Part shown: piece by piece, positions 4,497-10,069 of the stretch
Position numbering within the stretch: position 1 is the first letter of the stretch
How the letters are laid out: each line of letters starts with the position of its first letter
Assembly: GCA_017686895.1 (NCBI GenBank)
Contig: GCA_017686895.1_4521.1
Length of the DNA stretch: 64,000 nucleotides
Direction: 5' to 3' (one strand)
DNA from: a phage
Program-made: the position numbers and the translations under genes
The notes under the pieces: generated by a model
What the model was told of the DNA's origin: nothing
The model's input: only the letters and a program-made list of their open reading frames with translations
The model's database searches: none

Positions 4497-5090
4497 ATGA
4501 ACACACTGAAGAAACTTGTTGAATTCATCCGCACTAAACTGGGTACTGCTATGGCTAAAAATCTGACTGTCGAAGAACAGTATAACGCAGCCGCAGATAA
4601 GTTGATTACCCAAATCAAAGAACTAAAAACGGCTTCTGTTAAATCTATTAATGAAGAAAAACGTATTCGCGAACTTGTTAATGAAAAGAACAAGCAAGCC
4701 GCTTCTAAGGAACGTGAAATTCGTAAGCTCCTGGCTGAAGGACAAGATGTTACCATGCATGCTAAGCTTGGTCTTCTGTATCGTCGAACTGCCGAACAAC
4801 TTAATACAAAAGCTGACGGTTATGCCGCTATGCGAATTGAAATTGCTCGTAAGGTGGTTGAACTTGATGATGCTCGTCAGAATCTGGCAATCAAACTCGA
4901 ATACATTCGTGAAACTCGAGCAGCCAATGCCCTTGGTATCTCTACGGCTGATGATGTGATTGAAATTGCTGCACTGACTAAGGTTGATATCGAAGACACT
5001 CTGACTCGTGTTGAAACGTTCAATGGCACTCCAGCCGGTGTCGAAACCACTTCTGCTGATGTACAAGAATATATTAACTCTTTGAAATAA
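4497..5090 (+). CDS. hypothetical coiled-coil protein
   Basis: ATG at 4497 within track ORF 4482..5090; heptad-rich, charged sequence. Confidence 0.5.
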
Positions 5091-5098
5091 AATAATAC

Positions 5099-5120
5099 GG
5101 AGGACTCCGGTCCTCCTTTT
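5099..5120 (+). terminator. intrinsic terminator
   Basis: GGAGGAC-TCCG-GTCCTCC then TTTT. Confidence 0.65.
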
Positions 5121-5139
5121 GGATAATAAAGGAGTTAAC

Positions 5140-5736
5140 ATGCGAAACCAAAATAATGATATTGACTCAATGTTCGAAGAGTTCCGAGATAAGGTAAATC
5201 CACCTACGTCTTTAGTTGATTCATTACGATATGTTGCAACCGGACGTAAATGGTACTGGTCATCTTCTTATGAGACAACTGAATATGCAAATAACCGAAA
5301 ATCTTTATTAGCCCCAGGTATCATGATTAATGATATCGGAGCTATTGCTAAACTAGTTGCAGACCATGATATTAGATTCACTGATTTCGTTGCTCCTACG
5401 TGGTCTGTTTGTTGTTTAAACACTGAATGGGAATATATCAGCGAACGCTCTGAAGATTATTATGGTTTTAGAGATAAGCTTCTGAGGTCTAATATGTTTT
5501 ATATCGATACAGAAGTTCTAGTCGATAATAAAAAATACTACTTTACGTTAATCGTCGATTCTGAAACTATGTATGAAGGCAAGCCTTTGCTTAAGAGAGT
5601 TGATGCTTTAAGTGCTATTGATGCGCTTTATGAAACTATGGTTGTTAGTCCTAATTTCACTAACAATTTAATCCTTGAGCAATTTATTATGGAATGTAGA
5701 GAATATGTCAAAGCCAACCCTATACATGCCAAGTAA
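5140..5736 (+). CDS. hypothetical protein with EQFIMECRE motif near C-terminus
   Basis: ATG at 5140 after AAAGGAG RBS; C-terminal region carries the ExF(I/V)xECR tail shared with four downstream genes. Confidence 0.5.
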   Translation: MRNQNNDIDSMFEEFRDKVNPPTSLVDSLRYVATGRKWYWSSSYETTEYANNRKSLLAPGIMINDIGAIAKLVADHDIRFTDFVAPTWSVCCLNTEWEYISERSEDYYGFRDKLLRSNMFYIDTEVLVDNKKYYFTLIVDSETMYEGKPLLKRVDALSAIDALYETMVVSPNFTNNLILEQFIMECREYVKANPIHAK

Positions 5737-6100
5737 GCCCTGGGCGTATGAATACAAGCGTAAATTAATCCCAAATGAAGTACTATTTGGCCCTATTTTA
5801 GCTTTAGCATTTTTAATCTTTATGATTATAGGAGCCGTTTTAGATTCTAGTGAAGTTATATCGTCTGATGCAGCATTTTCATTAATGTTCGTCGCACCAC
5901 TTATTGTACCGTTTTTATTAATGCCTATTAACTGGATGGGATATTGGTACCAAGGACGTCATCACAGGGCCCGATTAAGAGAATGGAAAGTTCAGTGCGC
6001 AAAAGCCCAAGCTCAGTATGATGAAGCTGTTAAAAAGTATGAATATGAAGAAGCTATGGAATTCGTTAAGGAAATAAGATGCAAAAGCCTTAACTCTTAA
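5705..6100 (+). CDS. small membrane protein with EFVKEIRCK tail
   Basis: Two predicted TM helices (LFGPILALAFLIFMIIGAVL, FSLMFVAPLIVPFLLMPINW); start chosen at ATG 5705 (track start 5675 is TTG). Confidence 0.4.
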   Translation: MSKPTLYMPSKPWAYEYKRKLIPNEVLFGPILALAFLIFMIIGAVLDSSEVISSDAAFSLMFVAPLIVPFLLMPINWMGYWYQGRHHRARLREWKVQCAKAQAQYDEAVKKYEYEEAMEFVKEIRCKSLNS

Positions 6101-6141
6101 CCGTATGGCCTTCTCTTGGTGAGAACATTCTAATTTTTATT

Positions 6142-6438
6142 ATGAGTATTGGCATGGGATTTGCCTTTGGATTAGTTGGATTTATTATTGACGGCGTTGT
6201 GTTAGGATTTATAGGGAACACTGGTGGATTCACAGATCAATGGCAGGACTTACGGTATACCCAAGCCTTTGCATCCATCGCATCATTTTGTACTGTAGTC
6301 TATTTTTACTACAATTTTATAAACCATAACAAGAAAAATAAAAAAGTTTACGCTTCTCAAATGATTAGTTATAATGAACTCCTAGCTAGACGTGAAAATG
6401 AAACAATCGAAAACTTTATTAAGGAATGTAGAAAATGA
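6142..6438 (+). CDS. small membrane protein with ENFIKECRK tail
   Basis: Hydrophobic N-terminal half; ends ENFIKECRK. Confidence 0.5.
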   Translation: MSIGMGFAFGLVGFIIDGVVLGFIGNTGGFTDQWQDLRYTQAFASIASFCTVVYFYYNFINHNKKNKKVYASQMISYNELLARRENETIENFIKECRK

Positions 6439-6740
6439 GTAAGATTATTGAAATTAAAGTACCAGAGTTTAATGATGCCAAATCCGCTTCAGATGCAATT
6501 TATAAACTTCTGAATCAAGCTGAACGTATCGAAGAAGAAGCTACAAAGATTGCAGACCAATATGCAGTATCGTTTTCTGTAGGTGATTATGGTAGCGGTC
6601 GTACTTATTATCCTAAGGGTGAAATCGTATCCCAGTGGATGAAAGATGAAATTGAAAATAATGGCGGCGATGTTAAGCGTGAAGGTAATGGATACGTTAT
6701 TACTGAAGGTGCTTGGGTTTCATCTTCTGCGTTGTGCTAA
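6435..6740 (+). CDS. small protein, WVSSS-C tail family member 1
   Basis: Ends GAWVSSSALC; ATGA overlap with upstream gene. Confidence 0.5.
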   Translation: MSKIIEIKVPEFNDAKSASDAIYKLLNQAERIEEEATKIADQYAVSFSVGDYGSGRTYYPKGEIVSQWMKDEIENNGGDVKREGNGYVITEGAWVSSSALC

Positions 6741-6749
6741 GGAATCATT

Positions 6750-7022
6750 ATGTCTAAAGAACAAACCGAACTGGCTGAAGCTGTAGCAAAAATCTATGCA
6801 GTTATTGAGGCTGCCAAAGAAATTGCTGATAAACAAAACACAACATTCGACTTGTATCCAGCTTATGGTATGGGTGGAACGTATTATTCTCCTGGATTCT
6901 TGAAAAAAGAACTTGAGCATTATACCGAACAAGGCAATCCGAATTGGGCCACTGTCAACCAACACTCATATTACACCAGCCTCGAATCAGGTGGTTGGGT
7001 TGCATCTTCTATGGAATGCTAA
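6750..7022 (+). CDS. small protein, WVSSS-C tail family member 2
   Basis: Ends GGWVASSMEC; preceded by TAAGGAATCATTATG junction. Confidence 0.5.
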   Translation: MSKEQTELAEAVAKIYAVIEAAKEIADKQNTTFDLYPAYGMGGTYYSPGFLKKELEHYTEQGNPNWATVNQHSYYTSLESGGWVASSMEC

Positions 7023-7031
7023 GGAAATCAT

Positions 7032-7229
7032 ATGTCTCGTGAATTAGATTGTGCTGTACGTACGGCAGTAGCTGCTCTGGAAAACCTGTTCCAAATTGCA
7101 ACAGAAGAACGCGAAGAAGTTACATTATGGATTGAAGATAACGCAGGTCTGAATCTCCAGGACGCGATCTCATTATCCCACAATAGTATCACTGTTCAAG
7201 GCTGGGTATCATCTAGTTATTCTTGCTAA
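7032..7229 (+). CDS. small protein, WVSSS-C tail family member 3
   Basis: Ends QGWVSSSYSC; preceded by TAAGGAAATCATATG junction. Confidence 0.5.
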   Translation: MSRELDCAVRTAVAALENLFQIATEEREEVTLWIEDNAGLNLQDAISLSHNSITVQGWVSSSYSC

Positions 7230-7233
7230 AACA

Positions 7234-7263
7234 GTTTACAACAAGATAGGGCTATGTTATAGT
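7234..7263 (+). promoter_or_regulatory. early promoter inside a palindrome (approximate coordinates)
   Basis: GTTTAC, 18 bp spacer, TGTTATAGT; -10 flanked by ATAGGGCTA / TAGTCCTAT inverted repeat. Confidence 0.55.
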
Positions 7264-7291
7264 AGTCCTATCAAATTAAATGGAGACAACA

Positions 7292-7532
7292 ATGGTTTAT
7301 TACGAAAGTATCGGAACCGAAGTAGTTGCTAAAACTATTACTCGTGAAAAGTTTGCAAAGATATTCGATATGCGTTATAAAAAAATCTGAACACAAAGGC
7401 ATCCGATTCGAAGATGCGCACTGTACAATTTGCCCTTATAATGAAGACATAAACGGCACAATCGTTCCATTGGTAGAGGCTTCACATGACGACCTCTGGG
7501 ATGAATATAATATCGCATGTCGCGAAATTTAA
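7292..7532 (+). pseudogene. small Cys/His-containing protein gene interrupted by a frameshift at an A7 tract
   Basis: ATG 7292 with good RBS reads 31 codons into A7 run (7379..7385) then stops at 7388..7390; the +1 frame continues as track ORF 7326..7532 (SEHKGIRFEDAHCTICPYNEDINGT...). Confidence 0.4.
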
Positions 7533-7557
7533 GTAATCTAAATTCGAGGAAAATATT

Positions 7558-8514
7558 ATGATGTTAGTTATTGGTTCTCGTGCACTTCACTATCACGGTC
7601 TTATTGATTCTAGCGCTATCAAAAATAGTGATTGGGACTTTATTGCGGACCAATGTTCTTGGAATGCATTCAAAAATCAAATGATGGGTGTATATGTTCA
7701 CCAAGATAACCCTGGTGTCCAAGTTTTCAAATGTTTCCATAATGGACGCGAAACTCATTTTGAAGCATACATCGTTCCGGCTATCACTAACGTTCGCGAA
7801 CTAGTCGGTGAACTCACTCCTGAAGATTTCACGTCTTCTTATGACCTTTTAAAATACGCCAAGAAAAATTTGACTAAAGACCGTTTGAACGGGTTTTACT
7901 GGGCAACTCCTGAGATATGTCTTGCAATTAAGATGTCTCATCGTTTCAAGAAAAATAATCCATTCTTTTTAAAGACTATGAACCATATTCAGTATCTTCG
8001 TGGTAAAGGTGTTACACTGGACGATGAACTTACTGAAATTATGCTGAAACGCCAGAAAGAAACCTTGAACTATGCTCACCCAGTTCTTGACACTTCTAAA
8101 AGCGCATTCTTTAAAGATGACATCTATACGTATGACCATGATACTATTCACGAAGCCATTGCACTAACAGACCGTCCAGCGTATACATTTTATATGAAAG
8201 ATGGTTCTGAAGTCATGACCTCACGCGAGAAGTTCGAATCATTACCAGAAATGGTCAAATTAGCCGGCGTATACGAAGAATCATGTGTACTAGCGTTAGA
8301 ACGTTCTCAGATTCCTAATAACTTTGAAATCCATCCACGTGATAGTTTTATGATGGCATTAGAAAAAGTCTGTACTTCAATCACGTCAGGCTGGTTCCGT
8401 GAATACGCTTGGGAAAACTACAGCAAAGTTGTAAGTATGTACCAAAGCTTAGGACATGACGATTATGTAAAACGTTTTAAACAAAATTTCCATATGGTAA
8501 AACCTTTCAAATAA
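7558..8514 (+). CDS. hypothetical protein
   Basis: 318-aa ORF, ATG-ATG start after GAGGAAAA RBS; N-terminal IGSRALHYHG...DWDF weakly resembles a nucleotidyltransferase motif. Confidence 0.55.
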   Translation: MMLVIGSRALHYHGLIDSSAIKNSDWDFIADQCSWNAFKNQMMGVYVHQDNPGVQVFKCFHNGRETHFEAYIVPAITNVRELVGELTPEDFTSSYDLLKYAKKNLTKDRLNGFYWATPEICLAIKMSHRFKKNNPFFLKTMNHIQYLRGKGVTLDDELTEIMLKRQKETLNYAHPVLDTSKSAFFKDDIYTYDHDTIHEAIALTDRPAYTFYMKDGSEVMTSREKFESLPEMVKLAGVYEESCVLALERSQIPNNFEIHPRDSFMMALEKVCTSITSGWFREYAWENYSKVVSMYQSLGHDDYVKRFKQNFHMVKPFK

Positions 8515-8526
8515 TTTCGCAAAACT

Positions 8527-8556
8527 GTTTACACAATTATAGGACTATGTTATAGT
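8527..8556 (+). promoter_or_regulatory. early promoter inside a palindrome (approximate coordinates)
   Basis: GTTTAC, 18 bp, TGTTATAGT; flanked by ATAGGACTA / TAGTCCTAT. Confidence 0.55.
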
Positions 8557-8584
8557 AGTCCTATTAAAACATGAGGAGAATATT

Positions 8585-8890
8585 ATGAAATTAGGCGAAA
8601 CCAACCGAATTGGTCTTTTAACTATATTTGTATCACTTTTTTACGTAGCTCTTTCTGTTGCAGTATTACAAAAGGCTTACGATATGGATGGTGTTCCTGG
8701 TTTTGTATTCTTATCACCATTTTTATTATTCGTCGGGGCTTTGTTATTATATGCCACGACTAGTTTTGACCATAACGTCTGGGTTAATTATAAATGTAAA
8801 TTGTCTGAAGAAGAACACGCAGAAGCTCGTAAAAAAGCTATTGAATCTACCAATCTAGAAAATTTCATTAAAGAATGTCGAGGAAAATAA
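8585..8890 (+). CDS. small membrane protein with ENFIKECRGK tail
   Basis: Two hydrophobic segments; C-terminal LENFIKECRGK. Confidence 0.5.
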   Translation: MKLGETNRIGLLTIFVSLFYVALSVAVLQKAYDMDGVPGFVFLSPFLLFVGALLLYATTSFDHNVWVNYKCKLSEEEHAEARKKAIESTNLENFIKECRGK

Positions 8891-8891
8891 T

Positions 8892-9578
8892 ATGAATAGT
8901 TCTAAAGTGTTTAATAGTCAAGCTCGTGCAGTAGGTGGTTTTGCTCATAACGTACAAAATGACCAAATCAAAAATGAACCAATGTTCTTTAACTGTGATT
9001 TGAGTTTTGCTTGGGATAACGGCGGTCCTATTACTCGTAGCTTTATTGCCAATCTCCCAATTGATTGGACTAATCAACATGTTGTATTTGATTCTCGGGT
9101 TCATATGCTGATGCCTGGTTGGTATCCTGCTATTCCTGGATATCACCATGACGATGTTCCTCGCCCTGATATTCCAGTCGGCCAACACTTTATTACTGCA
9201 GGACAACCTGACTATGATAACCCTCGTTACCATTCTGAACATATTCTTGGTCTTGTTAACGCTGACGTGTGTCCTACTCATTTTGCAACAGGAACTGCAG
9301 AGTTCAGTCAGATTCCTGATGGCGAACTTATCTATCGCCAATGGCACAAAGAAGTCCTCGAAAAAATTGAAAAAGGTGAACTAGAGAAATGGGAAGCTCC
9401 AGACCGTACTCTTCTTCAGTTTGATTGGCAAACATGGCACACTGGTTCTCGTGCAATTAGTAATGGATGGCGTTGGTTCGGACGTGTATCTCGTAATACA
9501 GACCGAGTTAAAAAGATTACCAATGAAATTCGTGTCAATGCCCAAGTTTATCTGGAATTCCCTATGGAAGGCTGGTAA
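8892..9578 (+). CDS. putative Fe(II)/2-oxoglutarate-dependent oxygenase-like protein
   Basis: Candidate HxD (GYHHDD), distal His (WHTG) and RxS (RVS) in the spacing typical of the 2OG oxygenase fold; motif-level only. Confidence 0.4.
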   Translation: MNSSKVFNSQARAVGGFAHNVQNDQIKNEPMFFNCDLSFAWDNGGPITRSFIANLPIDWTNQHVVFDSRVHMLMPGWYPAIPGYHHDDVPRPDIPVGQHFITAGQPDYDNPRYHSEHILGLVNADVCPTHFATGTAEFSQIPDGELIYRQWHKEVLEKIEKGELEKWEAPDRTLLQFDWQTWHTGSRAISNGWRWFGRVSRNTDRVKKITNEIRVNAQVYLEFPMEGW

Positions 9579-10069
9579 TGATTAACAAAATATATTGGTC
9601 TAATATTGACGACGGCAATGAAGGTATTTCATACTATTCAGTAGATTGGACAGGATGTCCATCCTACTTAGTGAAACGTATTTGTCAAGAATTTAAAATC
9701 GACCAGCCAGCAGGTATTATCGTGAACAGATACATTAATGGATATCAACCTATCGATGAAGTAATACGAACAACTCAAGCTGATCTTGAAAAGTTTTTCA
9801 ATAAGTGTCAATGGATAACAGGATGGATTATATTTGTACCGTCGGTATGGTTTTTTAGTACTAAAGTAAGTGCCTTTGCCATACCAGATATTATCGCTAT
9901 CTTATTAGCATCTACTATCGTAAGTATTATTGGTGGTATTATTGGTGGAGGTACTATAGGCATCATTATTAATCTTGTTAAAAGTAGTTTACAGGAACGT
10001 AAAGACAAGATAAAGGCCAAGAATAATGAAGTTGAACGTTTTATTACCGAATGCAGGAATTTGAGATGA
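9578..10069 (+). CDS. membrane protein with ERFITECRNLR tail
   Basis: TAATG overlap start; Gly/Ile-rich TM segments; conserved tail. Confidence 0.5.
   Translation: MINKIYWSNIDDGNEGISYYSVDWTGCPSYLVKRICQEFKIDQPAGIIVNRYINGYQPIDEVIRTTQADLEKFFNKCQWITGWIIFVPSVWFFSTKVSAFAIPDIIAILLASTIVSIIGGIIGGGTIGIIINLVKSSLQERKDKIKAKNNEVERFITECRNLR

What the first reader, a model, noticed from the sequence alone, without database searches (positions are those of the whole stretch)
6435..7229. Tandem array of three small paralog-like genes ending in G-x-W-V-S-S-S-x-x-C
Three consecutive genes (101, 90 and 65 aa) end GAWVSSSALC, GGWVASSMEC and QGWVSSSYSC, with the terminal residue always Cys, and each is followed by the same TAAGGAA-TCAT-ATG junction. 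Codon differences within the tail (gtt/gta, tct/agt) again point to protein-level conservation. The bodies of the proteins differ. I do not recognise this tail from any described phage system.
Basis: seen in the sequence. Interest (0 to 1): 0.55.

Follow-up and report, generated by a model that had tools for sequence, protein, structure and literature searches.

The report
Cysteine-tailed small proteins paired with nucleotidyltransferase
The three small genes belong to a large, undescribed family of acidic phage proteins that all end in Trp-x-x-Ser-Ser-(0-3 residues)-Cys and that almost always sit just upstream of one conserved MenT-like nucleotidyltransferase gene. They therefore look like the multi-copy half of a new two-part phage module whose function is still unknown.

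Summary
ORFs 6435-6740, 6750-7022 and 7032-7229 end in GAWVSSSALC, GGWVASSMEC and QGWVSSSYSC. Only the first two are followed by the TAAGGAA..ATG junction.

The window is an RB69-like T4-type phage (Mosigvirus). The tail is conserved at protein level: 202 distinct DNA contexts use all six Ser codons and both Cys codons. I collected 321 distinct small acidic proteins (median pI 4.3) ending W-x-x-S-[S/N]-(0-3 aa)-Cys from many large phages. None has a name, a Pfam family or a known fold.

The new result is genetic linkage.
- In 72 of 80 viral loci that encode a relative of the 318-aa protein at 7558-8514, 1-5 tail genes lie upstream on the same strand.
- The motif occurs in 205/1061 upstream ORFs, against 0/866 downstream and 0/1386 on the opposite strand.
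- In the reverse test, 35 of 36 loci seeded with a tail protein carry that gene downstream.

Best reading: the tail is the shared docking or acceptor element for this enzyme. Whether the small proteins are substrates or regulators is unresolved.

The parts
6435..6740 (+). Tail protein 1 (101 aa, subfamily A: long helix, ..IAD.., GDYGSGRTYYPKG, ..GAWVSSSALC). Homologue of RB69 ORF139c, phrog_899.
6750..7022 (+). Tail protein 2 (90 aa, subfamily B: YGMGGTYYSPG, ..GGWVASSMEC). Paralogue of protein 1, phrog_899.
   Evidence: BLASTP against ORF1 gives E 5e-7 over 76 aa. Orthologues occur in JS98, Merlin and a Klebsiella phage.
7032..7229 (+). Tail protein 3 (65 aa, subfamily C: MSRELDCA.., ..QGWVSSSYSC), phrog_4882. 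Only the tail is significantly shared with the main family.
   Evidence: Orthologues occur in JS98 and a Klebsiella phage.
6708..6737 (+). C-terminal tail of protein 1 (G-A-W-V-S-S-S-A-L-C). Family-invariant residues are W94, S97, S98 and C101.
   Evidence: Alignments A1, A2, A4 and codon analysis.
6990..7019 (+). C-terminal tail of protein 2 (G-G-W-V-A-S-S-M-E-C).
7197..7226 (+). C-terminal tail of protein 3 (Q-G-W-V-S-S-S-Y-S-C).
6738..6752 (+). Junction 1: stop TAA overlapping a Shine-Dalgarno AAGGA, then the ATG of gene 2 (translational coupling).
   Evidence: It is part of the 49-nt direct repeat 6707-6755 / 6989-7037.
7020..7034 (+). Junction 2: TAAGGAAATCATATG, with the same arrangement before gene 3.
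7235..7263 (+). T4-early-type promoter-like site (G)TTTACA-N17-TG-TATAGT between the array and the downstream genes. There is no junction after gene 3.
   Evidence: This is a consensus match only.
7280..7532 (+). RB69 ORF135c-like small gene lying between the array and the enzyme. Here it is split into 36-aa and 68-aa ORFs by one extra A in an A-run. It is not a universal part of the module.
   Evidence: (alignment with JK42).
7558..8514 (+). Partner enzyme (318 aa, DUF7277+DUF7275, homologue of RB69 ORF134c, phrog_2141). It has an N-terminal MenT/AbiEii/ANT-type Pol-beta nucleotidyltransferase core (G6 S7, D25 x D27, E69) and a very conserved C-terminal helical domain (K125, S127, H128, H194 D195 H198, E240 E241, E248 R249; clade-specific Y172, H174, C272).
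5099..5116 (+). Intrinsic-terminator-like hairpin upstream. With it, genes 5119-7229 (including the three tail genes) look like one transcription unit.
   Evidence: This is a consensus match, so the transcription unit is an inference.

Best explanation
The three genes are members of a large, unnamed family of small (about 50-150 aa), strongly acidic, probably early-expressed phage proteins. These proteins have a long N-terminal helix packed on a small beta-meander, and every one ends in W-x-x-S-[S/N]-(0-3 residues)-Cys-COOH.

They are the multi-copy, upstream half of a conserved two-part module. The single-copy half is the 318-aa protein at 7558-8514, a MenT/AbiEii-like nucleotidyltransferase fused to a highly conserved helical domain.

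The most likely mechanism is that the tail is the common element through which each small protein docks into this enzyme. One enzyme would then serve 1-5 diverged 'client' proteins. My favoured version has three parts.
- The acidic body occupies the enzyme's nucleic-acid-binding cleft.
- The tail enters the catalytic or clade-specific pocket.
- The invariant Ser (W+3) acts as acceptor or pseudo-substrate for nucleotidyl or phosphoryl transfer, with the terminal Cys (thiol plus free carboxylate) as the anchoring residue.

What is shown: the family exists, the tail is conserved at protein level, the tail genes are tightly and directionally linked to the enzyme gene, and the enzyme has this predicted fold and a conserved catalytic triad.

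What is inferred: physical contact between the two, the acceptor role of Ser, early expression, and any effect on the host.
For: Family and tail:
- 321 distinct proteins were collected. 280 of them are joined by BLAST single linkage.
- W, S and the terminal C are invariant.
- All six Ser codons and both Cys codons are used in 202 distinct DNA contexts, and only 103 of 202 have an SD-like sequence after the stop.

Linkage:
- 72 of 80 enzyme-seeded viral loci (40-97% identity) have 1-5 tail ORFs. All are on the same strand and upstream, with a median gap of 374 nt.
- The motif is found in 205/1061 upstream ORFs, against 0/866 downstream and 0/1386 on the opposite strand.
- 35 of 36 loci seeded with a tail protein have the enzyme 0.3-2.3 kb downstream. 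The one exception is a contig that ends.
- The pair stays together although the flanking genes differ: the tRNA/nudE region in Tevenvirinae, nrdD/nrdC.2 in Aeromonas phages, and a phosphatase/DprA region in Phapecoctavirus.

Enzyme:
- G6, S7, D25 and D27 are invariant even in 26-33% identical homologues.
- Y172, H174, C272, S277, F280 and R281 are invariant only in the tail-associated clade.

Many clients, one enzyme:
- Subfamilies A-E are each conserved across genera.
- The tail is attached to bodies with no detectable mutual similarity.

Precedents for protein-directed transfer by this kind of enzyme:
- MntA oligoAMPylates a Tyr of HepT (PMC13000451).
- MenT1 phosphorylates its own T39 (PMC11375011).

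Charge: the small proteins are acidic, with median pI 4.3 and median net charge -9. This fits binding in an RNA-binding cleft.
Against: - No direct evidence of contact or modification exists. No complex prediction was possible.
- AF2 places W94-S96 as a confident beta-strand inside the small protein's own fold. The tail is therefore not a free peptide, and only the last 4-5 residues look accessible.
- 106 of 303 family members also carry an internal copy of the motif (W-x-x-S-x-C). This weakens the idea that the free carboxylate is essential.
- The enzyme is retained intact without tail genes in several phages (L034, the L057 group, L084) and throughout distant clades. Its core activity therefore does not depend on the small proteins, and they cannot be its only substrate.
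- The residues correlated with tail presence are a clade-level correlation only.
Confidence: 0.4

Rival explanations
1. The small proteins are regulators of the nucleotidyltransferase and are not modified by it. They would be antitoxin-like inhibitors or specificity switches, as the 68-aa MenA1 is for MenT1. They would bind across the active site through the helix and tail, blocking it, inducing auto-phosphorylation, or changing nucleotide or RNA preference. Different paralogues would tune the enzyme differently.
For: - The gene order is small gene(s) upstream, enzyme downstream, as in MenAT and AbiE. The best structural match is MenT1.
- MenA1 is a 68-aa upstream-encoded protein that blocks MenT1 active sites, induces T39 auto-phosphorylation through its N-terminal helix, and alters nucleotide specificity (PMC10435456, PMC11375011).
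- The phage proteins have a conserved long N-terminal helix with an invariant Asp and are acidic.
- Dependence is asymmetric: tail genes are never found without the enzyme, but the enzyme occurs without tails.
Against: - One inhibitor would be enough. Here up to five diverged paralogues are each conserved across genera.
- All tail genes have been lost with an intact enzyme retained at least three times. That is unexpected if the proteins neutralise a harmful enzyme.
- The invariance of a Ser and a terminal Cys is more than a binding interface usually requires.
Confidence: 0.25
2. The tail is the working site of the small proteins themselves, and the link to the enzyme is at pathway level rather than a direct tail-enzyme contact. 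One example is a Cys-based carrier or metal-binding site on a C-terminal arm, as in DsrC/TusE or SoxY sulfur carriers. Another is a Zn- or disulfide-mediated oligomerisation site.
For: - The terminal Cys is invariant. 206 of 303 members have two or more Cys, and 106 of 303 have a second internal W-x-x-S-x-C, which suggests paired thiols.
- D41, Y58, S97, S98 and C101 are invariant together in the A/B subfamilies, as expected for a small functional site.
- AF2 builds the tail into the fold.
- Several small paralogues with one conserved Cys recall sulfur-relay proteins. This parallel comes from my own knowledge of the Tus/Dsr systems, not from a test.
Against: - No fold similarity to DsrC/TusE, TusA, SoxY or any metal-binding domain.
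- No sulfurtransferase, cysteine desulfurase or redox enzyme was recognised among the neighbours I scanned.
- Two of the three window proteins have a single Cys.
- It does not explain why the enzyme clade that has tails also has its own extra invariant residues.
Confidence: 0.2
3. The tail is a C-terminal sorting or degradation signal read by a host factor (a protease, chaperone or secretion/packaging machinery). It would time the life span or set the location of a set of early proteins.
For: - The motif is always at the extreme C-terminus and is attached to partly unrelated bodies, as for degrons.
- The genes are probably early (sigma-70/T4-early-like promoters).
Against: - It does not explain the near-obligate, directional linkage to one phage gene across very different hosts: Escherichia, Aeromonas, Acinetobacter, Pseudomonas and marine jumbo phages.
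- The tail is predicted to be largely structured.
- An internal copy is present in a third of members.
- I know of no degron of this form (own knowledge).
Confidence: 0.05
4. The tail is an artefact of translational coupling or recent tandem duplication. DNA-level conservation of stop, SD and start would drag along the last codons, with no function for the peptide.
For: - Genes 1 and 2 share a 49-nt DNA repeat covering tail, stop, SD and ATGTCT at 78% identity.
- About half of all tails are followed by an SD-like sequence.
Against: - Gene 3 has the tail without the junction.
- 202 distinct DNA contexts use TCN and AGY Ser codons and both Cys codons, and the other half have no SD after the stop.
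- The tail is conserved between phages whose proteins are below 30% identical.
- The motif scores 0 of 2252 control ORFs.
Confidence: 0.01

Closest known systems
MenT/MenA and AbiEii/AbiEi nucleotidyltransferase toxin-antitoxin modules (DUF1814 family; type IV/VII TA)
   Same: - Small gene(s) lie immediately upstream on the same strand.
- MenA1 is likewise a small (68 aa) protein that acts on the enzyme's active site (PMC10435456, PMC11375011).
   Different: - No sequence match to DUF1814 (Pfam gives only DUF7277/DUF7275).
- The enzyme has an extra, very conserved C-terminal domain with no PDB relative.
- The module is essentially confined to virulent large phages, with only 5 MAG contigs among 185,579 species genomes. 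It is not a bacterial chromosomal TA locus.
- There are 1-5 upstream genes rather than one. They have a different fold and an invariant W-x-x-S-S-..-Cys end that no MenA or AbiEi has.
- Toxicity and tRNA modification are untested.
HepT/MntA (HEPN-MNT) type VII toxin-antitoxin systems
   Same: A minimal Pol-beta nucleotidyltransferase covalently oligoAMPylates a hydroxyl side chain (Tyr) of its small, co-encoded partner protein (PMC13000451). This is the precedent for the 'tail Ser as acceptor' version.
   Different: - The partner in HepT/MntA is a HEPN RNase with an R-x4-6-H motif. The phage proteins have no HEPN features, and the candidate acceptor is a Ser in a C-terminal tail.
- The enzyme here is 318 aa with a second domain.
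- The phage module has several partners per enzyme.
RlaP (PF10127) RNA-ligase-associated nucleotidyltransferases, e.g. T4 NrdC.11
   Same: - These are phage- and bacteria-encoded Pol-beta enzymes that add 1-2 NMP to RNA 3' ends for RNA repair (PMC12776372).
- Distant homologues of the enzyme studied here lie next to RNA ligase, Pnk or tRNA genes in Streptomyces, Roseobacter and Gordonia phages.
   Different: - No Pfam PF10127 match.
- No profile similarity to T4 NrdC.11 (hhalign E 0.77).
- RlaP has no associated small Cys-tailed proteins.
- tRNA genes lie within 5 kb in only 7 of 48 diverse loci.
One tailoring enzyme serving several tandem precursor genes (RiPP-like logic, e.g. prochlorosins; C-terminal Ser/Cys chemistry of lanthipeptides)
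   Same: - Several tandem small genes with a shared Ser/Cys-containing end sit beside a single conserved enzyme gene.
- Activation of Ser by phosphorylation or nucleotidylation followed by Cys addition is known chemistry in class III/IV lanthipeptides (own knowledge).
   Different: - The small proteins are confidently predicted to be folded, with the tail partly inside the fold.
- The Ser-to-Cys spacing varies from 0 to 3, which is incompatible with one fixed ring.
- No LanB/LanM/LanKC, YcaO or radical-SAM enzyme, protease or exporter was recognised nearby.
- There is no leader/core division.

Membership tests
PHROG families phrog_899 / phrog_4882 (unknown function) | Significant match to the family profile. 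| tested here: met
   ORF1 1.3e-22 and ORF2 1.4e-18 to phrog_899. ORF3 7.7e-37 to phrog_4882.
MenT/AbiEii (DUF1814) nucleotidyltransferases - for the partner at 7558-8514 | Pol-beta nucleotidyltransferase fold with motif I (hG[GS]) and motif II ([DE]x[DE]). | tested here: met
   [not shown]
MenT/AbiEii (DUF1814) nucleotidyltransferases | Sequence membership of DUF1814 (Pfam) including the family-specific C-terminal motif IV. | tested here: not met
   Pfam at E<=1 returns only DUF7275 and DUF7277. PDB sequence and profile searches find no MenT. A K125-x-S-H-R..K139-T stretch resembles motif IV only loosely, by eye.
MenT/AbiEii (DUF1814) nucleotidyltransferases | Cognate antitoxin of a known family (COG5340 MenA3/MenA4/AbiEi, or MenA1) encoded upstream. 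| tested here: not met
   [not shown]
MenT/AbiEii (DUF1814) nucleotidyltransferases | Growth-inhibiting addition of nucleotides to tRNA 3' ends, neutralised by the partner. | not testable with these tools
   This needs toxicity assays and in vitro tRNA labelling.
HepT/MntA type VII TA | Partner is a HEPN RNase with R-x4-6-H, and the acceptor Tyr lies next to that motif. | tested here: not met
   No HEPN Pfam match in ORF1-3. Their fold is a helix plus beta-meander, not a 4-helix HEPN bundle. The only HEPN-like signal is a sub-threshold hit of the enzyme itself to the RNase L KEN region (E 0.09).
RlaP (PF10127) | Match to PF10127, or similarity to T4 NrdC.11. | tested here: not met
   No PF10127 hit. 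hhalign of A3 against T4 NrdC.11 gives E 0.77.
RiPP / lanthipeptide-type precursor arrays | A recognised tailoring enzyme (LanB/M/KC/L, YcaO, rSAM, MNIO) in the cluster, and a disordered precursor with leader and core. | tested here: not met
   Neighbouring ORFs across 5119-10069 have no such Pfam domains. ORF1 is predicted to be folded, with pLDDT 92.6.
DsrC/TusE- or SoxY-type sulfur carriers with a C-terminal Cys arm | DsrC/TusE or SoxY fold and family match. | tested here: not met
   [not shown]
Known anti-defence or defence proteins (PADLOC-DB) | Significant profile match. | tested here: not met
   Only E about 0.01 chance-level hits.

The most novel reading that the evidence does not exclude
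The module is a new kind of phage-encoded protein-tagging system. A MenT-like nucleotidyltransferase would covalently nucleotidylate (or otherwise activate) the invariant Ser/Cys end of a set of small acidic carrier proteins. This would create nucleotide-bearing, RNA-mimicking proteins that the phage uses early in infection against host tRNA- or nucleotide-directed defences or for host take-over. The C-terminal W-x-x-S-S-..-Cys would then be a previously unknown genetically encoded modification tag, present in hundreds of phage genomes including the model phage RB69.
Probability: 0.2. Interest if true: 0.85.

Novelty: new variant of a known kind. Interest (0 to 1): 0.62.

Why it matters
Both halves of the module are annotated as 'hypothetical protein' almost everywhere they occur. 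The enzyme is found in 734 sequenced phages and 2221 protein clusters. At least 321 distinct tail proteins were collected. The hosts include well-studied and therapeutic phages of E. coli, Klebsiella, Enterobacter, Acinetobacter, Aeromonas and Pseudomonas.

The analysis turns three anonymous ORFs into a testable two-component system with a defined motif, defined candidate catalytic residues, and a clear closest relative: MenT-type enzymes that act on tRNA ends.

If the small proteins are substrates, this would be a new protein modification and a new way for phages to use a toxin-type nucleotidyltransferase. If they are regulators, it would be the first MenAT-like module dedicated to virulent phages, with an unusual multi-regulator design.

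Either way, it gives a function-oriented handle on part of the 'hyperplastic' early regions of T4-like genomes.

Tried and rejected
- **Chance or coupling artefact.** Rejected by codon usage and by the control ORFs.
- **Literature.** No paper mentions DUF7275/DUF7277, PF23940/PF23942, RB69ORF134c/139c or the PHROG ids. Keyword searches on a C-terminal cysteine with nucleotidyltransferase found nothing relevant. The jumbo-phage survey by the Aravind group does not mention the family.
- **T4 itself.** No tail ORF was seen in T4 itself: phages of T4's own genus are missing from the sampled tblastn rows for ORF1, though the e.2-e.8 locus L002 was never actually scanned (could not read it). T4 nrdC.3 and nrdC.11 are unrelated to the enzyme.
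- **tRNA link.** tRNA genes lie within 5 kb in only 7 of 48 diverse loci, so I treat this as weak. In L034, however, seven tRNA genes replace the array.
- **A Cys243/Cys272 pair in the enzyme as partner of the tail Cys.** C243 is Tyr in several tail-bearing loci, so only C272 remains a candidate.
- **Bacterial homologues.** The genome-contig scan gave 5 MAG contigs only.
- **Searches that could not run.**
  - The search for related loci failed with the broad tail alignments because no stretch was conserved enough. A narrower alignment worked.
  - The afdb50 library was unavailable.
- **RNA elements and repeats in 5000-9000.** No Rfam hit. The only repeat is the tail/junction repeat.
Full report
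**What is in the window.** The region 6435-7229 holds three consecutive + strand ORFs: 6435-6740 (101 aa), 6750-7022 (90 aa) and 7032-7229 (65 aa). They end in GAWVSSSALC, GGWVASSMEC and QGWVSSSYSC, with Cys as the last residue each time. A six-frame scan of all 64 kb finds this kind of end only in these three ORFs.

The stop/Shine-Dalgarno/start junction TAAGGAA(A)TCAT(T)ATG follows genes 1 and 2 only. Gene 3 is followed by TAAAACAGTTTACA.., a T4-early-type promoter-like site at 7235-7263. Tail plus junction of genes 1 and 2 form a 49-nt direct DNA repeat at 78% identity.

The window is an RB69-like T4-type phage (Mosigvirus), 96.7% identical to Shigella phage Shf125875 over 3 kb. The genes lie in the variable early region between the tRNA/ipI genes and nudE/e. 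T4 itself appears to have no homologue: phages of T4's own genus are absent from the rows of the tblastn search for ORF1 that I saw. I never scanned the corresponding T4 e.2-e.8 region (L002) for the tail, because could not read that locus. No RNA family and no other repeat is present in the region.

**Are they paralogues, and is the tail a protein-level feature?**
- ORF1 and ORF2 are detectable paralogues over 76 residues (E 5e-7), and both match phrog_899.
- ORF3 (phrog_4882) shares only the tail at a significant level: hhalign gives 10 columns at E 5e-6, and nothing significant once the tail is trimmed.
- Homologues occur in tandem sets of 1-5 in many other phages: Dhakavirus (five in JS98), Karamvirus, Moonvirus, Winklervirus, Klebsiella, Aeromonas, Acinetobacter and Pseudomonas phages, Phapecoctavirus, and jumbo phages of about 350 kb.
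- I collected 321 distinct proteins. 280 of them join in one BLAST single-linkage cluster.
- The consensus is a long N-terminal helix (..A..I..L....A..IAD), a YG-x-GG-x-TYYP-x-G segment, an internal Trp, and the end G-x-W-x-x-S-[S/N]-(0-3 aa)-C. W, the Ser at W+3 and the terminal Cys are invariant.
- In 202 distinct DNA contexts the invariant Ser positions use all six codons (both TCN and AGY), and Cys uses both codons. Only 103 tails are followed by an SD-like sequence.

That criterion is clearly not met.

One third of the proteins (106 of 303, against 1 expected from shuffles) also carry an internal copy of the motif, typically DW[LQ]NSSCYGE. The proteins are strongly acidic, with median pI 4.3 and median net charge -9 for 78 residues.

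**What is known about the family.** Nothing is known.
- There is no Pfam, NCBIfam or PADLOC match, and the PHROGs are 'unknown function'.
- Searches of 5.8 billion clustered proteins and of 1.84 billion representatives return only unnamed phage and metagenome proteins.
- AF2 gives a confident model of ORF1 (pLDDT 92.6). It has helix 15-43 and a beta-meander in which W94-S96 form the last strand and S97-C101 a terminal turn.
- No paper mentions the relevant identifiers.

**The main new finding: a conserved partner.** In every locus I first inspected, the array was followed by a gene of about 300-320 aa. In the window this is 7558-8514 (318 aa, Pfam DUF7277+DUF7275, phrog_2141, homologue of RB69 ORF134c).

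I tested the linkage in both directions.
- **Seeding with the enzyme.** In 80 viral contigs (40-97% identity), 72 have 1-5 ORFs with the tail motif. All are on the same strand and upstream, and the median distance from the last tail gene to the enzyme is 374 nt. One of the eight 'negative' loci has a 172-aa tail protein that my length cut-off excluded, and another has no upstream sequence.
- **Controls.** The motif is present in 205 of 1061 same-strand upstream ORFs. It is present in 0 of 866 same-strand downstream ORFs and in 0 of 1386 opposite-strand ORFs.
- **Seeding with subfamily-A tail proteins.** 35 of 36 loci have the enzyme 0.3-2.3 kb downstream, and the exception is a contig that ends there.

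The pair stays together although the surrounding genes differ. It sits in the tRNA/nudE region in Tevenvirinae, between nrdD and nrdC.2 in Aeromonas phages, and next to a Ser/Thr phosphatase and a DprA-like gene in Phapecoctavirus. This argues for functional coupling rather than inherited gene order.

The dependence is asymmetric. I found no tail genes without the enzyme. The enzyme, however, is retained intact without tail genes in L034 (where seven tRNA genes occupy the place of the array), in the L057 group and in L084. The same holds in all distant homologues (26-33% identity) in Gordonia, Streptomyces, Vibrio and Roseobacter phages.

The enzyme clade is essentially phage-only. It occurs in 734 phage records and 2221 protein clusters, but in only 5 MAG contigs among 185,579 species genomes.

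**What the partner is.**
- AF2 gives a confident model (pLDDT 92.1).
- G6-S7, D25-x-D27 and E69 form the usual catalytic set. G6, S7, D25 and D27 are invariant even in the most distant homologues.
- The C-terminal domain (DUF7275) is more conserved than the catalytic core. Its invariant residues are K125, S127, H128, F184, F185, H194, D195, H198, K225, E240, E241, E248 and R249. It has no relative in the PDB by sequence, with only sub-threshold hits to the RNase L KEN region and the HisJ family.
- It is not a DUF1814 member by sequence. It is unrelated to the RlaP enzyme of T4, NrdC.11, and to T4 nrdC.3.
- Y172, H174, C272, S277, F280 and R281 are invariant in the tail-associated clade and differ in most of the distant tail-less homologues (C272, S277, F280 and R281 persist in DSS3_VP1). 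They are candidates for a tail pocket, but this is clade-level correlation only.

**How it most likely works.** MenT toxins add nucleotides to tRNA 3' ends. MenT1 is controlled by MenA1, a 68-aa protein encoded upstream that blocks the active sites and induces auto-phosphorylation of T39 (PMC10435456, PMC11375011). MntA nucleotidyltransferases oligoAMPylate a Tyr of their small partner HepT (PMC13000451). Both a regulator role and a substrate role therefore have precedents in this enzyme class.

I favour a 'client' model at 0.4. The tail is the shared docking and acceptor element, the acidic body sits in the RNA-binding cleft, and the invariant Ser is an acceptor or pseudo-substrate. My reasons:
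- Up to five diverged paralogues are each conserved across genera.
- The same tail is attached to bodies without detectable similarity.
- An invariant Ser and an invariant terminal Cys are more than a binding interface usually needs.
- All tail genes have been lost with the enzyme retained, which argues against essential antitoxins.

Against it:
- The tail is largely built into the small protein's own fold.
- A third of members have an internal copy of the motif.
- The enzyme clearly has a tail-independent activity.

The rival explanations are as follows.
- A pure regulator role, like MenA1 (0.25).
- An intrinsic Cys-based carrier or metal site, with only a pathway-level link to the enzyme (0.2).
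- A degron or sorting signal (0.05).
- A coupling artefact (0.01).

The family, the motif, the linkage and the enzyme fold are shown. Contact, chemistry and biological role are inferred.

**Context that did not settle the matter.** Distant enzyme homologues lie near RNA ligase, Pnk, tRNA clusters or NamPRT. The window's copy is about 6 kb from two tRNA genes. However, tRNA genes lie within 5 kb in only 7 of 48 diverse loci. An RNA-end activity of the enzyme is plausible by analogy with MenT and RlaP (PMC12776372), but nothing here demonstrates it.

The finding is best described as a new, phage-specific variant of the small-protein-plus-nucleotidyltransferase module. Its distinguishing features are an unprecedented invariant C-terminal W-x-x-S-S-..-Cys motif and several partners per enzyme. 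It is widespread, includes a model phage, and can be tested directly with simple biochemistry.

Noticed in passing
window 5119-5736, 6142-6438, 8585-8890, 9578-10069 (+): Four ORFs, three of them small membrane proteins, end with a second recurrent C-terminal motif, F-[IVL]-x-E-C-[RK]..EQFIMECREY....NFIKECRK..NFIKECRGK..RFITECRNLR. In 6142-6438 the AAG GAA codons of K-E also serve as the Shine-Dalgarno of ORF1, whose ATG overlaps the stop (ATGA). The same motif occurs in JS98 and PG7 homologues.
   Followed up: partly
window 7280-7532 (+): The RB69 ORF135c-like gene (79 aa in phage JK42) is split into 36-aa and 68-aa ORFs by one extra A in an A-run (A7 against A6, about 7375-7381). This may be a pseudogene, a sequencing error or a slippery site.
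   Followed up: partly
L034 3615-4567 (IMGVR_UViG_650627040_000001): In one Karamvirus-like phage, seven tRNA genes occupy the place of the tail-gene array, directly upstream of an intact enzyme gene.
   Followed up: partly
L094-L098 (Gordonia phage Miskis, Streptomyces phage Wakanda, Vibrio phages K406 and VH7D, DSS3_VP1): Distant enzyme homologues (26-33% identity, about 250-300 aa) keep the G-S / D-x-D and H-D..H / E-E..E-R residues but have no tail genes. Their neighbours are tRNA clusters, polynucleotide kinase, RNA ligase and nicotinamide phosphoribosyltransferase.
   Followed up: partly
Family-wide, e.g. L003 4010-4234 (JS98): A 72-77-aa subfamily that is absent from this window carries the motif twice: internally as DW[LQ]NSSCYGE and terminally as ..W-x-x-S-S-C. 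106 of 303 family members have such an internal copy.
   Followed up: partly
window 7235-7263 and 8528-8556 (+); 5099-5116: Two near-identical T4-early-type promoter-like sites, (G)TTTACA-N17-TG-TATAGT, flank the enzyme gene's transcription unit. A strong terminator-like hairpin precedes the unit that contains the tail genes.
   Followed up: no
RB69 ORF139c (protein P0002): The RB69 reference annotation of the ORF1 homologue is a 71-aa protein covering only 67% of ORF1. In the model phage, the gene is either truncated or mis-annotated.
   Followed up: no
window 7558-8514 (+), residues 216-313 and 68-150: There are two sub-threshold similarities of the enzyme's C-terminal part: to the HisJ/PHP phosphatase family (E 0.007, far below cut-off) and to the KEN (HEPN-like) region of RNase L (E 0.09). 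Neither is evidence on its own.
   Followed up: no
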